The position numbers and the translations under genes are program-made. From the human T2T-CHM13v2.0 reference genome, Homo sapiens: 64,000 nucleotides of DNA. The DNA is taken from assembly GCF_009914755.1 (NCBI RefSeq), contig NC_060930.1. One strand, given 5' to 3'. The notes under the pieces were generated by a model that saw only the letters and a program-made list of their open reading frames with translations, had not been told where the DNA came from and did not search any database. Positions within the stretch are counted from its first letter, which is position 1. Every line of letters starts with the position of its first letter. Shown piece after piece: positions 12,551 through 59,031 of this stretch.

Positions 12551-12905
12551 GGTATTAGTCCATTTTCATTCTGTTGATAATGACATACCCAAGACTGGGC
12601 AATTTACAAAAGAAACAGGTTTAATTGGACTTACAGTTCCATGTGGCTAGGGTAGCCTCACAATCATAGCAGAAGGCAAGGAGGAGCAAGTCCCTTCTTG
12701 CACAGATGGCAGCAGGCAAAGAGAGAGTTTGTACAGGGAAACTCCCCTTTTGAAAATCATCAAATCTTGAGAGACTCATTCACTATCACCAGAATAGTGC
12801 AGGAAAGAACCTCCACCATAATTCAATTGCCTCCCACCAGGTGCCTCCTACAACATGTGGGAAATCAAGATGAGATTTGGGTGTGGACACAGCCAAACCA
12901 TATCA
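12551..12905 (-). mobile_element. THE1 (THE1B/C) solo LTR
   Basis: gtattagtccattttc...ggacacagccaaaccatatca termini; 5-bp TSD tactt/tgctt. Confidence 0.9.
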
Positions 12906-15057: not shown

Positions 15058-15425
15058 TGATACGGTTTGGCTGTGTCCCCACCCAAATCTCATCTTGAAT
15101 TGTAACTTCCACAATTCACACATGTCATGGGAGGGACCCAGGGGCTGGTTACTGAATTATGGGTGTGGGTCTTTCTCCTGCTTTCTCATGATAGTGAATA
15201 AGTCTCATTAGATATGATAGTTTTATAAGGGAGAGTTTCCTTGCACAAGCTCTTTCTTTGCCTGCTGCCATCCACGTAAGACGTGACTTGCTCCTCCTTG
15301 CCTTCCAGGATGATTGTGTGGCCTCTCCAGCCATGTGGAACTATAAGTCCATTAAACCTCTTTCTTTTGTAAATTGCTCAGTCTTGGGTAGGTCTTTATC
15401 AGCAGCGTGAGAGTGGACTAACACA
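15058..15425 (+). mobile_element. THE1 (THE1B/C) solo LTR
   Basis: tgatacggtttggctgtgtccccacccaaatctc...ctttatcagcagcgtgagagtggactaacaca; attaaa polyA signal. Confidence 0.9.
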
Positions 15426-33658: not shown

Positions 33659-34107
33659 ACAATGAGAACACATGGACACAGGAAGGGGAACATCACACAC
33701 TGGGGCCTGTTGTGGGGTGGGGGGAGGGGGGAGGGATAGCATTAGGAGATATACCTAATGTTAAATGACGAGTTACTGGGTGCAGCATACCAACATGGCA
33801 GATGTATACATATGTAACTAACCTGCACGTTGTGCACATGTACCCTAAAACTTAAAGTATAATAAAAAAAGATTATCATTTAAAAGTCCCAGATTTAGTT
33901 TGCTTATAGACTTTTGTCCAGTAGAGATGCAAATACTTTCTGTTCAGAAGAGAAAAATAACCCCAAAGTTATAATTTATTGTCCCGTGGGACAGCAAGCA
34001 GATATGCATCTAATCCAGCAAATATTATTCTGAAATGCCTTTATTAAACTCCCAGTGAATACACAACTCTTCAAATGCTCTCTAGTCTGTTTGTATAATA
34101 GTTTGTA

Positions 34108-34209
34108 ATTTCAAACTATTATAGGCTAAATCAAATTTAGCCTTGCTTCGCTCATAGACTTTTTTTGTTTAGACTATGTTTTAGGTTCCAGGTTTTGTAT
34201 AACATTTTA
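34108..34209 (+). repeat. 102-bp direct duplicate, copy 1
   Basis: Matches 36850-36951 with 2 mismatches. Confidence 0.95.
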
Positions 34210-46299: not shown

Positions 46300-46839
46300 T
46301 TTCTACGTTTGGGGCTTTGTTATACTCCAATTGCTTGGAGAAAAAAAAATCAAAGTTTTAACGCTTGAAAACTTTTGCCAAACTTTCTTTTTCCATATGC
46401 TCTACCATTAGGGATTTCTTTATTTTCAGGGACTCAAAAGTTTATGACACTCCAGCCCTGACCTGACATCATGCTGAAATTGTCAATAACCCACTTTTAT
46501 TTCTACTGTTGCCCAAATCAACATGTCCAACATAAAATTTGTTTTGCCATCCCCCCAAATTCTAATACAAGTTTTAATTAATGGCTGTACCACATTTTAG
46601 TAATGCTAAGCTTTAAGCATTTTTGGCTCATTTTTTCTATCTTAAATTTTAGTCAGATTCCAAGTCATGTATAGTATATATTCAAAATGTCTTAGGCTTT
46701 TGCTCCCCACCTTACACTCCTACACTCGGTATCTTCTATCATGTACCATCTGTTCACTATAATGTTTCCTAAGTATTTTACAGCTGTCTTCCCTGACTTC
46801 AGTTCTTAATAAATGCAATAGCAAAATAAATCTTCCTAA

Positions 46840-47210
<371 letters not shown>

Positions 47211-47214
47211 TGTG

Positions 47215-47773
47215 ATTGGAAACTTTTCTAGGGTACCATCACATATGGAATTAATTACAGCTTTCTCTACCTATCCTGTAAGTACTTTACCTGCACTATG
47301 GTCTCTTAGAAAGTTGCTTAACTACTTAATCCCTTAGTTACTATTTGTAAAAGGGAATAATAATATGAAACTTTTAGACATGTTGAGAAGATTAAATGGC
47401 TCTCTCTCTCTCCCTCTTTATATATATCTAGATATATCTATCGATATATCTATTGATCGATAGATCTATATATGGACAGATTCTATATATCTAGATATAT
47501 ATCGATAGATATATATAGATATACATATCTATATATATGGATAGATCTATATATAGATAGATAGAGAGAGAGAGGGAGAGAGAGAGAGCCATTTAATCTT
47601 CTCAACATGTCTAAGACTTTCATATTATTATTCCCTTTTACAAATAGTAACTAAGGGATTAAGTAGTTAAGTAACTTTCTAAGAGACCATAGTGCAGGTA
47701 AGGTACTTACAGGATAGGTAGAGAAAGCTGTAATTAATTCCATATGCAGTGGTACCCTAGAAAAGTTTCCAAT
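47215..47773. repeat. Large inverted repeat: 203-bp arms (47215-47417 and 47571-47773) around a 153-bp TA/GA spacer; arms include a MIR core
   Basis: Arms are reverse complements with about 7 mismatches by manual alignment. Confidence 0.95.
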
Positions 47774-47880
47774 ATATCTATATCTATATCCAATATATCT
47801 ATATATATATATCTATATATCTATATATATATAGAGAGAGAGAGAGGGAGAGAAAGAGGGAGAGAGAGCAAGAAGAGAGG
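47774..47880 (+). repeat. (TA)n(GA)n compound microsatellite
   Basis: Direct reading. Confidence 0.9.
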
Positions 47881-48094
47881 AGCATTATAGGTACTCAAAA
47901 ATTGACACTTTATTATCTACGTTTCTGGCCTCACTTTTTAAAATAACTTATTCTTTTGATTTGTTTATAATTGTTATTACAAATAATTTTCAACATACAT
48001 AAAAATTTTAAAAATAGTGCAATACATACCAGTAAACCTACAACCAAAATTAAATAACTGTTAACATTTTGCCATACATTTTGTATATATATGT

Positions 48095-48455
48095 TGTCTT
48101 AGTCTGTTTGGGCTGCTATAGCAAAACACCATAGACTGGTAGCTTATGAATAATAGAAATTCTTTTATTACAGATCTGGAGACAGGGAAGTCTAAGATCA
48201 AGGCGTCAGCAGACTCAGTGTCTGGTGAGGGCCCGCTTCTTCATAGATGGCCTTCTTTTCACTGTAACCTCTCATGATGACAGGAGCTCTCTCTGGTCTT
48301 TCATAGCACGAATTCCTTTCATGAAGGCTCTGCTCTCAAGACCTAATCATCTCCGAAAGGTCCCACCTCTTAATACCGTCACCTTGGGAGTTAGGATTTC
48401 AACATATGAATCAACGTATGAATTTTGAGTGGGCACATAAACATTCCATCCACTT
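48095..48455 (-). mobile_element. MLT1A-like LTR
   Basis: tgtcttagtctgtttgggctgctatagcaaaacaccatagactgg...ggatttcaacatatgaat. Confidence 0.85.
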
Positions 48456-49615
48456 TATATGTTAAAGTGCAAATGCATGCTTTTTGAACTGTTTCAAAAC
48501 AAGCGGAAGACACTTTAATAAAGCAGATGATACTTTATCCTTAAATACTCTAACATTCATCTGTTATTAATAATCAGAATATTCTCCATGCTGCCTAGGC
48601 CATTATCACATCTAACAATATTAATCATAAATATTGAGTATTAGCTATTATCTAAGTCTTATCACAATCTCCCCAACTGTTCCTTTAATGCATTTCATAA
48701 CTGTTTTGCCTTCAGTTTAGTGTTATTTTTTAACCAGGATGCAATTAAGTTTCATATGGTTGTTAGAAATGTTCTCTCTCTCTCTTAATTTAAAGGAGCT
48801 CTACTGGTTTTTTAAAAAAACGCAATGCTACTTTATTAAATATCTGAAATTATGGATTTTACCATTTGCTAACTCAGTTTTTCTAAACTCCATATTTCTG
48901 CCAAATTGGAAATTAGATCTAAGACCAAATTAAATCATGTTAGCCACTTTCGGTAAGCATCTTTCATGAGCTTTTCATAAAATATTACATCAAGACAAAT
49001 ATATCATGGTGTCTTAAAGGTAGTAATGCTAAATTTGACTGATGATTTAAGATGACCTCCATATCACTTTATTTTATAGTTTGGTAATTTTCTTTGCAAT
49101 TAGAAAATATGCAGTGAATGATACTTTTACTATGTTGGTTTATGAAATAAAACATTTCTTCTAAAAGTTTCAGTATCCACTGAGGGTTCTGTAAAAATCA
49201 ACTATTTAGTTATAAATTTAAAAAAAATGTCTAATTCTGTCATTTTCATACATAACAAAATGGGGTTTCTTTTTTCACCTCATCAAATCAATATGAACTA
49301 CAATTTGTCTTAAAAAGAGAAGGTAAAAAATTATCTCCCTTTAATTACTAATGCTAAGAACAAGGAGTTGATATATACCTACTAGGTATACACAAAATTT
49401 AAAAGTAAAAAAAAAAATGACTATAAAGGAATAAGCAGTTGAAGTAATAGTAATTTTCAAAGATAGTAAAACTTTTTCCTCTTTTTATTTTAGTAACACT
49501 AAGAAATCAGGATTTTTCCCCCTTGCTGTTTTATATTTACTTATGCCCATTATTCTTTCTCATGCTCACATTATGTCATATTTGGCCACTGAGTCCATTC
49601 AGGCTGGCTCCTGTG

Positions 49616-49752
49616 TCCTTTTGTCACATCTCTACTAGCTTTTGAGTATCAAAAAGAGTCTGGCTTACATGTACTACTTTTTGTCCTCAAAATATATTGT
49701 ACTTACTTACTATTTTTGATACTCAAAAGCTAGTAGAGATGTGACAAAAGGA
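49616..49752. repeat. Perfect 40-bp inverted repeat (49616-49655 and 49713-49752), 57-bp spacer
   Basis: tccttttgtcacatctctactagcttttgagtatcaaaaa and its exact reverse complement. Confidence 0.95.
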
Positions 49753-49762
49753 TACTGTGTTA

Positions 49763-50161
<399 letters not shown>

Positions 50162-50186: not shown

Positions 50187-50492
<306 letters not shown>

Positions 50493-57941: not shown

Positions 57942-58225
57942 GGGTGAGCGCGGTGGCTCACGCGTGTTATCCCAGCTCTTTGGGAGGCCGAGGCGGGCGG
58001 ATCACGAGGTCAGGAGATCGAGACCATCCTGGTTAACGCGGTAAAACCCCGTCTCTACTAAAAATACAAAAAATTAGCTGGCCATGGTGGCCGGCCCCTG
58101 TAGTCCCAGCTACTCGGGAGGCTGAGGCAGGAGAATGACATGAATCCAGGAAGCGGGAGCTTGCAGTGAGCCAAGATCGCACCACTGCACTCCAGCCTGG
58201 GCGACAGAGCAAGATTCCATCTAAA
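57942..58225 (+). mobile_element. AluY
   Basis: ggatcacgaggtcaggagatcgagaccatcctgg; gagcttgcagtgagc; tail replaced by a microsatellite. Confidence 0.95.
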
Positions 58226-58237
58226 TATATATATATA

Positions 58238-58270
<33 letters not shown>

Positions 58271-58597
58271 GTGTATATATATATATATATGTGTGTATAT
58301 ATATATGTGTGTGTATATATATATGTGTGTGTATATATATATGTGTGTATATATATATGTGTGTATATATATGTGTATATATATACGTGTATATATATAT
58401 ACGTGTATATATATATACACACACATATATACGTGTGTATATATGTGTATATATATACACACACATATATACGTGTATATATATATACACACACATATAT
58501 ACGTGTATATATATATACACACACATATATACGTGTATATATATATACACACATATATATACGTATATATATACACATATATATACATAGATATATA
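58225..58597. repeat. Compound (TA)n/(TG)/(CA) micro/minisatellite with ~28-30-bp units
   Basis: Direct reading; unit tatatatatatacacacacatatatacgtg is repeated in the second half. Confidence 0.95.
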
Positions 58598-59031
58598 ATT
58601 TTATTCTAAAAACCTAGAAAAACTGGATAAAATAAACTAATTCCTAGAAAAACACAATTTTCCTAAATGAGAAACATTTGAATAGAAAACCAGAGTAGTC
58701 CTCATATGTATTAAAGAAATTGGTTTCACTGGCATATTCTATGAAACATTTAATGTAGAAATAATGCTAATTCTACATAAACTCTCTAAAACTAGAGAGA
58801 AAGAAGCACATTCCAAGTAACATTAAGTGGCCAAAGTAACTCTGATACTGAAATCTGACAAATATATTTTAAGAAAATATGATTACAAACCAATATTTCT
58901 CATGAACATGATTGTAAAAATTATTATATTAGAAAATTAAATCAAGTAATATGTTACAAAAATAACATATTTGTATTAATAGATGCATTGGAAGAATGCA
59001 TGAGAGTTTAAATTGTTTAAAAGTCATGCAT

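What the first reader, a model, noticed from the sequence alone, without database searches (positions are those of the whole stretch)
47215..47773. 559-bp quasi-palindrome: a MIR-containing 203-bp segment copied in inverted orientation into an adjacent TA/GA microsatellite
Seen: arms 47215-47417 and 47571-47773 are ~96% reverse complements, far above the similarity of independent MIRs, and include non-MIR sequence up to the Alu TSD. The 153-bp spacer is rich in self-complementary motifs (tctaga, atcgat, agatct, TA runs), and the microsatellite resumes after the right arm. Inference: fold-back or template-switch duplication started at the TA repeat. It could extrude a cruciform (fragility) or, if transcribed, form ~200 bp of dsRNA, a substrate for ADAR or Dicer.
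Basis: partly seen in the sequence, partly recalled or inferred. Interest (0 to 1): 0.7.

Follow-up and report, generated by a model that had tools for sequence, protein, structure and literature searches.

The report
Microsatellite that copied its flank backwards
Deep in an intron of the human eye gene EYS, a 203-base stretch is repeated backwards inside a neighbouring CT/TA/AG microsatellite, likely an old and harmless DNA-copying slip, and the same layout turns up at 4 to 5 of 35 similar microsatellites elsewhere in the genome.

Summary
Confirmed. Arms 47215-47417 and 47571-47773 are gapless reverse complements, 196 of 203 identical, found only here in the genome. The right arm is the copy: it holds 15 of the Alu's 19-bp target duplication and sits inside a CT-TA-AG microsatellite that splits one dispersed repeat (MIR by recall). 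Seven differences (3.4%, CI 1.4-7.1%) point to an old, likely ape-age event and argue against an assembly artefact.

Best reading: a short-range template switch (fold-back) in the self-complementary microsatellite, returning into the TA tract. This is a known mutation class; human inverted duplications have a median of 284 bp (PMC12350158).

The layout recurs. 4 of 35 CT-TA-AG loci carry an inverted copy of their own non-Alu flank, against 0 of 110 background windows (p=0.003) and 0 of 12 GT-TA-AC loci. One copy is 198 bp. No matched non-TA control was obtained.

Function is unsupported: the spacer is 153 bp, the longest pure TA run is 13 nt, no Rfam family reaches its threshold, and there is no wobble bias on the EYS strand. 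The locus is ordinary; the recurrence is a modest, testable lead.

The parts
46863..46881 (.). Alu target-site duplication, tail-side copy (~19 bp)
   Evidence: 20 of 22 identity for 46860-46881 vs 47208-47229; the first 3 bases of the other copy are the Alu head
46882..47210 (-). Alu element (tail 46882-46929, body 46930-47210), older than the duplication; not copied
   Evidence: SRP-like Rfam hits; 7.9% (20/252) from the majority of 39 local Alus, against 1.7% per arm
47211..47229 (.). Alu target-site duplication, head-side copy; its last 15 bp are in the left arm
47215..47417 (+). Left arm, the original (template) sequence: part of the TSD, ~60 bp unique DNA, 5' part of a dispersed repeat, CT tract
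   Evidence: continuous with the full TSD and co-oriented with the downstream part of the repeat
47290..47399 (+). 5' portion of an old dispersed repeat (MIR by recall; left edge approximate)
   Evidence: Motif at 47390-47398 lies 31-49 bp from the motif of 47888-47898 at 9 other genomic places, 0 in the reversed control
47400..47419 (+). CT tract with a CCC interruption; likely pairing partner for the first switch
   Evidence: sequence; 3' AG ends pair with it in folding, though in a slipped register
47418..47570 (.). 153-bp spacer: interrupted TA/TATC/GATA microsatellite with an inner imperfect hairpin (47419-47464 / 47482-47527, 85%)
47541..47586 (+). End of first TA tract plus first AG tract; direct near-copy (41/46) of 47815-47858, possibly the direct repeat left by a return switch upstream of the departure point
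   Evidence: low complexity, so weak
47571..47773 (-). Right arm, the inverted inserted copy, 196/203 identical to the left arm
47768..47804 (+). Return junction: a 16-bp word spanning the arm end and the TA tract recurs 21 bp later (47768-47783, 47789-47804); 2 bp of microhomology certain, up to 6 bp possible
   Evidence: sequence
47774..47832 (.). Second TA tract, where the microsatellite resumes; longest pure TA run 13 nt
47833..47869 (+). Second AG tract; its last 17 bases mirror the left CT tract apart from two repeat units (read by eye), suggesting an earlier short fold-back
   Evidence: sequence; one search aligns 47400-47427 with 47825-47852 at 25/28
47870..47915 (+). 3' continuation of the dispersed repeat (MIR by recall; right edge approximate)

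Best explanation
A 203-bp inverted copy of the left flank sits inside a CT-TA-AG microsatellite; it was likely made in one short-range template switch during DNA replication in an ape-age ancestor and is probably a neutral passenger in an EYS intron. Inferred steps: (1) a self-complementary microsatellite grew inside an old dispersed repeat beside an older Alu; (2) the growing strand stalled in the microsatellite and its 3' end paired back on the CT/TA tract of its own strand, or on the opposite template; (3) synthesis ran backwards through the CT tract, the repeat fragment and unique DNA to 47215; (4) the end re-annealed by 2-6 bp of microhomology in the TA tract, probably upstream of where it left, so that part of the TA/AG tract was copied twice; (5) both arms then decayed independently. 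Shown: the copy, its direction, its junctions, its divergence, and the recurrence of the layout. Inferred: strand, switch point, date and neutrality.
For: Gapless 196/203 arms with a sharp outer end. Two matches in the genome. The copy holds only 15 of 19 TSD bases and interrupts a repeat whose two ends are 31-49 bp apart at 9 other places but 489 bp apart here. The junctions lie in low-complexity, self-complementary DNA, and the TA-to-AG end is duplicated in direct orientation at 41/46. The layout recurs at L003 (198 bp, 193/198), L060 (72/73), L051 (52/56), L067 (46/51, two copies) and L048 (25/26). With Alus masked: 4 of 35 CT-TA-AG loci vs 0 of 110 background windows, Fisher p=0.003; cross-locus null 1 of 1000. 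The unique arm parts of L003 and L060 each match only their own locus. Size and junctions fit human inverted duplications: median 284 bp, mostly 1-15 bp microhomology, replicative origin suggested (PMC12350158, passages). [quoted passage not shown]
Against: No outgroup genome was available, so the pre-event allele and the date are inferred. Folding today's sequence pairs the AG end with the CT tract (p about 0.7) but in a register slipped by 8 nt, so the exact priming register was not reproduced. The direct TA/AG repeat is low-complexity and could be convergent. The copied length exceeds the longest gold-standard ape event (128 bp, PMC7954356), though human candidates up to 318 bp are reported (PMC9435742). 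Genome-wide counts of palindromic compound tracts are near independence (CT-TA-AG 50, mixed 420, GT-TA-AC 1354; 37 expected for the first), so most such tracts do not need a fold-back origin. CT-TA-AG vs GT-TA-AC is not significant (5/35 vs 0/12, p=0.31).
Confidence: 0.62

Rival explanations
1. Break repair rather than fork slippage: the TA tract, then longer, was cut; the resected left end folded back, was extended about 200 nt, unwound and joined to the right end by NHEJ or microhomology-mediated joining. Same product, different trigger.
For: Yeast fold-back inversions at breaks run 2 to ~150 bp with 0-5 bp microhomology at the capture end (PMC11724301, passages). TA repeats are cut and repaired by MMEJ (PMC13645644, passages). 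Return junctions at L003 and L060 show no microhomology by eye, and this junction carries a 21-bp-period repeat.
Against: Most yeast events are under 14 bp. A direct duplicate of the TA-to-AG end is more natural for a return switch than for a two-ended break. Present TA runs are 13 nt at most.
Confidence: 0.25
2. The structure is today a cruciform or hairpin fragile site that drives breaks or rearrangements in EYS.
For: Long near-perfect arms (longest perfect run 54 bp); the AT-rich spacer folds as single-stranded DNA.
Against: 153-bp spacer: a 52-bp spacer already abolished frequent fork stalling at inverted Alus in eukaryotic cells (PMC7999016, review passages). Labile Alu pairs are under 20 bp apart, and the arm/spacer ratio here is 1.3 against more than 16 for strong recombinogenicity (PMC5414712, passages). 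Seven differences accumulated without loss or homogenisation.
Confidence: 0.07
3. The hairpin has been kept because its RNA acts as an edited or diced duplex (proto-miRNA or endo-siRNA) in EYS-expressing cells.
For: It lies inside the EYS transcription unit (hub annotation) and a ~200-bp stem is predicted. Template switches have produced miRNA hairpins, mostly intragenic (PMC10710096, first part and passages).
Against: No Rfam match reaches gathering score: best 55.7 bits against 200, structure-driven. No annotated RNA gene. The stem is far longer than the 30-55 bases that paper used for miRNA-like stems. On the EYS strand 2 of 7 differences are wobbles and 5 are mismatches. Ordinary inverted Alu pairs lie within 3 kb of each other in the same window.
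Confidence: 0.05
4. The arms are terminal inverted repeats of a transposon (MITE) or two independent repeat insertions.
For: The arms contain a fragment of a dispersed repeat.
Against: No further copies in the genome search. The arms include unique DNA and part of an Alu TSD. No target-site duplication flanks the pair. 96.6% identity is far above that of independent repeat pairs in the window (73-83%).
Confidence: 0.01
5. Assembly or sequencing fold-back artefact.
For: It lies in low-complexity DNA; reads were not available.
Against: A chimeric read would give identical arms. These differ at 7 scattered sites, 6 of them transitions, including a CA/TG pair that fits opposite-strand CpG decay.
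Confidence: 0.01

Closest known systems
Short-range template-switch mutations, four-point model (PMC5453318, PMC7954356, PMC9435742; passages read)
   Same: Reverse-complement copy of nearby sequence creating an inverted repeat. The order with points 3 and 2 upstream of 1 allows an intra-strand switch; return upstream gives direct plus inverted repeats.
   Different: The copied part is about 200 bp (median 12, maximum 128 in the ape gold set; up to 318 among unfiltered human candidates). Those scans removed masked or low-complexity loci, so a microsatellite- and repeat-embedded event like this one falls in the excluded part.
Human polymorphic inverted duplications in long-read SV sets (PMC12350158; passages)
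   Same: Size (median 284 bp) and microhomology-only junctions.
   Different: Those segregate today; this one is 3.4% diverged and probably fixed. The passages read do not mention a microsatellite association.
Small inverted triplications, DUP/IN/DUP (PMC13334657; abstract, sections 2.4 and Discussion)
   Same: Central inverted piece of 100-200 bp, short junction homology, 3'-end fold-back model; breakpoints near microsatellites in yeast rad27 mutants.
   Different: There is no third copy of the arm here; only the microsatellite end appears duplicated. The spacer is 153 bp against a median of 30.
Fold-back templated insertions at double-strand breaks in yeast (PMC11724301; passages)
   Same: Inverted local copy primed from inverted microhomology and captured with 0-5 bp homology.
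   Different: Induced breaks in yeast, mostly under 14 bp; no evidence of a break here.
Long inverted repeats and fragile palindromes (PMC5414712, PMC7999016; passages)
   Same: Meets the definition of a long inverted repeat (>30 bp, >85% identity).
   Different: The spacer is too long and the TA runs too short for the labile class.

Membership tests
Short-range template-switch mutation | Inserted segment is the reverse complement of nearby sequence | tested here: met
   196/203, 153 bp away; no other genomic source found
Short-range template-switch mutation | Four switch points explain the descendant from an ancestral allele better than a forward alignment | not testable with these tools
   No primate outgroup; ancestral state inferred only from the split repeat and the TSD
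Short-range template-switch mutation | Pre-existing inverted homology that can prime the first switch | tested here: inconclusive
   The AG end pairs with the CT tract at p about 0.7 but in a slipped register
Human inverted duplication (SV class) | Local inverted copy of at least 50 bp with junction homology of 15 bp or less | tested here: met
   203 bp; return junction 2-6 bp; class figures
Human inverted duplication (SV class) | Presence/absence polymorphism | tested here: inconclusive
   No row with these coordinates in the readable, cut part of one supplement, which holds no full SV list
Small inverted triplication | Three copies of the segment (direct, inverted, direct) | tested here: not met
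   Two copies of the arm only
MITE / DNA transposon | Dispersed copies with terminal inverted repeats and a target-site duplication | tested here: not met
   2 matches, both local; no flanking duplication
MIR SINE fragment in the arm | Belongs to a dispersed repeat family whose two ends flank the microsatellite | tested here: met
   9 places vs 0 in the control; single-sequence nhmmer in 146 kb of held DNA found no other significant copy
MIR SINE fragment in the arm | Match to the MIR consensus or profile | not testable with these tools
   No Dfam or Repbase library; the name is recalled
miRNA precursor | Match to a curated family or miRNA-sized stem | tested here: not met
   0 of 27 Rfam hits in 46500-48500 reach gathering score; stem about 200 bp
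miRNA precursor | Expression and precise processing | not testable with these tools
   No RNA data
Cruciform-forming fragile TA repeat or palindrome | More than 20-22 perfect AT units, or a spacer under about 20 bp | tested here: not met
   Longest pure TA run 13 nt; spacer 153 bp; thresholds

The most novel reading that the evidence does not exclude
Self-complementary CT-TA-AG microsatellites are recurrent germline hotspots that copy 25-200 bp of their own flank backwards into themselves. Roughly one in eight such tracts carries one. They form a blind spot of published template-switch scans, which mask repeats, and a steady source of new long hairpins in introns.
Probability: 0.45. Interest if true: 0.5.

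Novelty: new member of a known kind. Interest (0 to 1): 0.33.

Why it matters
The locus itself probably does nothing: it is a deep-intronic fossil of a known mutation type. Its value is as a readable record of how a microsatellite can prime a 200-bp inverted duplication, longer than the curated ape template-switch events. If the recurrence holds genome-wide with proper controls, it names a sequence trigger for human inverted duplications, whose origin is now only called replicative. It would also show that masking simple repeats hides a class of events, and give a cheap list of loci to test in pangenomes, ape genomes and RNA-editing data.

Tried and rejected
(1) Excess of palindromic compound microsatellites as a genome-wide fold-back signature: CT-TA-AG 50, mixed 420, GT-TA-AC 1354 matches; 37 expected under independence, nominal p=0.013. 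The 50 reduce to 45 places, 4 of which may be acrocentric paralogues, so the excess is not relied on. (2) Register test of the priming hairpin: not reproduced. (3) Finding repeat-family relatives by single-sequence nhmmer in 146 kb of held DNA: nothing significant. (4) Rfam: only sub-threshold, structure-driven miRNA hits and Alu-SRP hits. (5) ORFs: three of 63-74 aa, all starting in or at the Alu, judged spurious. (6) A first border-based scan and an unanchored scan were confounded by Alu-Alu matches (20 of 500 null pairs scored 15 or more) and were replaced. (7) L061 passed the automatic filter but was dropped as AT-rich low complexity. L067 was missed but found. L048 drops out because its arm is Alu. 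L027 (7 unique bases) is not counted. (8) A matched non-TA control, (CT)n(CA)n, was located (70 places) but its flanks were not examined, so TA-dependence is open; incidental tracts were too few (0 of 6 non-TA, 0 of 2 TA, 0 of 3 poly-A). (9) 12 of the 45 places were not examined. (10) Polymorphism look-up in a supplement was uninformative; that paper's main supplementary PDF was too large to read and may bear on a microsatellite link.

Full report
Observation. The window is human chr6 (T2T) inside a very long EYS intron; EYS is on the minus strand and no exon lies in the window (hub annotation). Positions 47215-47417 and 47571-47773 are gapless reverse complements, 196 of 203 identical, with an abrupt outer edge. 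A search of the whole genome with the 185-bp non-microsatellite part returned 2 matches, both here. In the window it is the only near-identical long inverted pair with arms under 3 kb apart; the other long close pairs are 73-83% identical, and one 30-bp near-palindrome lies at 34094-34123.

Anatomy. From left to right: an Alu on the minus strand with a ~19-bp target-site duplication (46863-46881 and 47211-47229); the left arm, starting 4 bp from the Alu head; a CT tract; a 153-bp interrupted TA/TATC/GATA spacer; an AG tract running into the right arm; a second TA tract; a second AG tract; then ordinary sequence. Two short motifs, one ending the non-microsatellite part of the left arm (47390-47398) and one after the second AG tract (47888-47898), occur 31-49 bp apart at 9 other genomic places with related sequence between them, and at 0 places in the reversed control. 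Here they are 489 bp apart. So the microsatellite and the inversion lie inside one dispersed repeat. I recognise it as MIR from memory; no library was available, and single-sequence nhmmer found no other copy in 146 kb. The left arm is the original because it is co-oriented with the rest of the repeat and continuous with the full TSD, of which the right arm holds only 15 bases.

Age. The arms differ at 7 sites, 6 of them transitions; two adjacent ones fit decay of one CpG on opposite strands. That is 3.4% pairwise (Poisson 95% interval 1.4-7.1%) or 1.7% per arm, against 7.9% for the Alu from the local Alu majority (CpG columns only partly removed, subfamily sites included). The Alu therefore came first. 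By recalled primate divergences (about 1.2% human-chimpanzee, 3% orangutan, 6.5% macaque) the event is likely of great-ape age, with a range from the chimpanzee split to the Old World monkey split. This pattern of decay is not what a fold-back read or assembly artefact would give.

Junctions. At the departure side, arm identity starts at 47571, inside the AG tract. The stretch 47541-47586 resembles 47815-47858 in direct orientation (41 of 46), as expected if synthesis passed the TA-to-AG border, switched to the inverted CT tract, copied backwards and returned upstream in the TA tract. This is weak evidence because the DNA is low-complexity. Folding a strand that ends in the AG tract pairs its end with the CT tract (p about 0.7) but 8 nt out of the observed register, so the switch point is not fixed. 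At the return side the arm joins the TA tract with 2 shared bases, and a 16-bp word spanning the junction recurs 21 bp later, either native 6-bp homology or a second slip. The spacer holds an inner imperfect hairpin (46-bp arms, 85%; z -2.56), and the second AG tract mirrors the CT tract, suggesting smaller earlier fold-backs.

Recurrence. I searched the genome for CT-TA-AG tracts; this locus does not itself appear among the 50 matches. I examined 35 distinct places: 33 of the 45, plus 2. Five carry an inverted copy of their own flank: L003 (193/198), L060 (72/73), L051 (52/56), L067 (46/51, present twice) and L048 (25/26). In the first four the far end of the copy re-enters TA or CT-TA microsatellite, as here; L003's copy ends in a long pure TA run and its 367-bp spacer includes an Alu. 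The unique arm parts of L003 and L060 match only their own loci. An anchored scan gave 5 of 35 (including L061, dropped as low complexity, and missing L067), 0 of 12 GT-TA-AC loci and 1 of 1000 cross-locus pairs. An unanchored scan with Alus masked gave 4 of 35, 0 of 12, and 0 of 110 background windows (p=0.003).

Limits of the recurrence test. Selecting on CT...AG enriches for fold-back products by construction. The contrast with GT-TA-AC is not significant (p=0.31). No matched non-TA control was examined. Genome-wide counts of the compound classes are close to independence (50, 420, 1354), so most such tracts arise without large fold-backs.

Mechanism. The most likely cause is a short-range template switch at the self-complementary microsatellite during replication (0.62). 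Fold-back repair of a break in the TA tract gives the same product (0.25); yeast events of that kind reach about 150 bp but are mostly under 14 bp (PMC11724301, passages), and TA breaks are repaired by MMEJ (PMC13645644, passages).

Function. The EYS-sense RNA is predicted to fold into a stem of about 200 bp, so ADAR could act on it if the intron folds locally; this is untested and inverted Alu pairs in the window offer similar substrates. There is no sign of selection for pairing: 2 of 7 differences are wobbles on the sense strand and 4 of 7 on the other. None of 27 Rfam hits reaches its gathering score. Cruciform fragility is unlikely: pure TA runs are 13 nt at most, perfect AT tracts need more than 20-22 units (PMC11797062, passages), and spacers of 52 bp already suppress stalling at inverted Alus in eukaryotic cells (PMC7999016, review passages).

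Comparison with known work. It works like, and is best filed as, a template-switch inverted duplication. Human inverted duplications have a median length of 284 bp and mostly 1-15 bp microhomology (PMC12350158, passages; supplement index, first part and one search). Ape template switches have a median of 12 and a maximum of 128 bp, with RepeatMasker-masked donors excluded (PMC7954356, passages). Human candidates reach 318 bp before masking, and low-complexity hits were removed despite evidence that VNTRs evolve by template switching (PMC9435742, passages; PMC5453318, passages). Small inverted triplications lie near microsatellites in yeast rad27 mutants (PMC13334657, abstract and two sections), but this locus lacks a third copy. 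Template switches can found miRNAs (PMC10710096, first of six parts and passages). Ten full-text searches (listings only for papers not named above) showed no description of this locus or of CT-TA-AG tracts as sites of inverted flank copies; the 15 rows listed had no EYS mention. Subscription papers and unseen supplements may cover it.

Verdict. A real, old, probably neutral member of a known mutation class. The recurring microsatellite-embedded layout is a modest new lead (probability 0.45, interest 0.5 if true). Overall interest 0.33.

Noticed in passing
L003:1000-1197 / 1565-1762 (G000:C1:3497237-3497999): Second large case: 198-bp inverted copy (97.5%) of unique flank plus an Alu monomer, starting after a CT-TA-AG tract and ending in a long pure TA run.
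   Followed up: yes
L060:269-341 / 541-613 (G000:C10, near 2234123-2234467): 73-bp inverted copy with one mismatch, inserted between TA tracts; mirror-image layout and probably young.
   Followed up: yes
L051:405-553; L067:156-551; L048:322-522; L027:1494-1580: Shorter inverted flank copies at CT-TA-AG tracts. L067 has two identical 48-bp copies; L051 also has a 10-bp island once inverted and twice direct; L048's copy ends in unique DNA; L027 has only 7 unique bases.
   Followed up: partly
L025:908-959 / 1858-1909: 52-bp inverted pair (92%) about 900 bp apart, spanning an Alu and a microsatellite but not embedded in it.
   Followed up: no
G000 genome-wide pattern counts: Strong polarity of compound microsatellites: CT-TA-AG 50 matches vs 0 for the reversed pattern; GT-TA-AC 1354 vs 343; mixed 420 vs 8.
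   Followed up: partly
window 58216-58604: About 390-bp TG/TA/CA array at an Alu tail that is quasi-palindromic as a whole (about 75% self-complementary); no flank copy seen.
   Followed up: no
window 12552-12905 and 15058-15424: Two LTR-like repeats (THE1/MaLR type by recall) in inverted orientation, 289 of 372 identical, 2.2 kb apart.
   Followed up: no
window 46930-47210 with 49780-50077 and 50197-50480: Oppositely oriented Alus 2.6-3 kb apart (80-83%), ordinary candidates for intronic dsRNA beside the finding.
   Followed up: no
window 49613-49755 and 34094-34123: A 143-bp self-complementary stretch (78%) and a 30-bp near-palindrome (93%).
   Followed up: no
L055:300-600: Microsatellite holding islands of non-repeat sequence, including a short word present twice; source not traced.
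   Followed up: no
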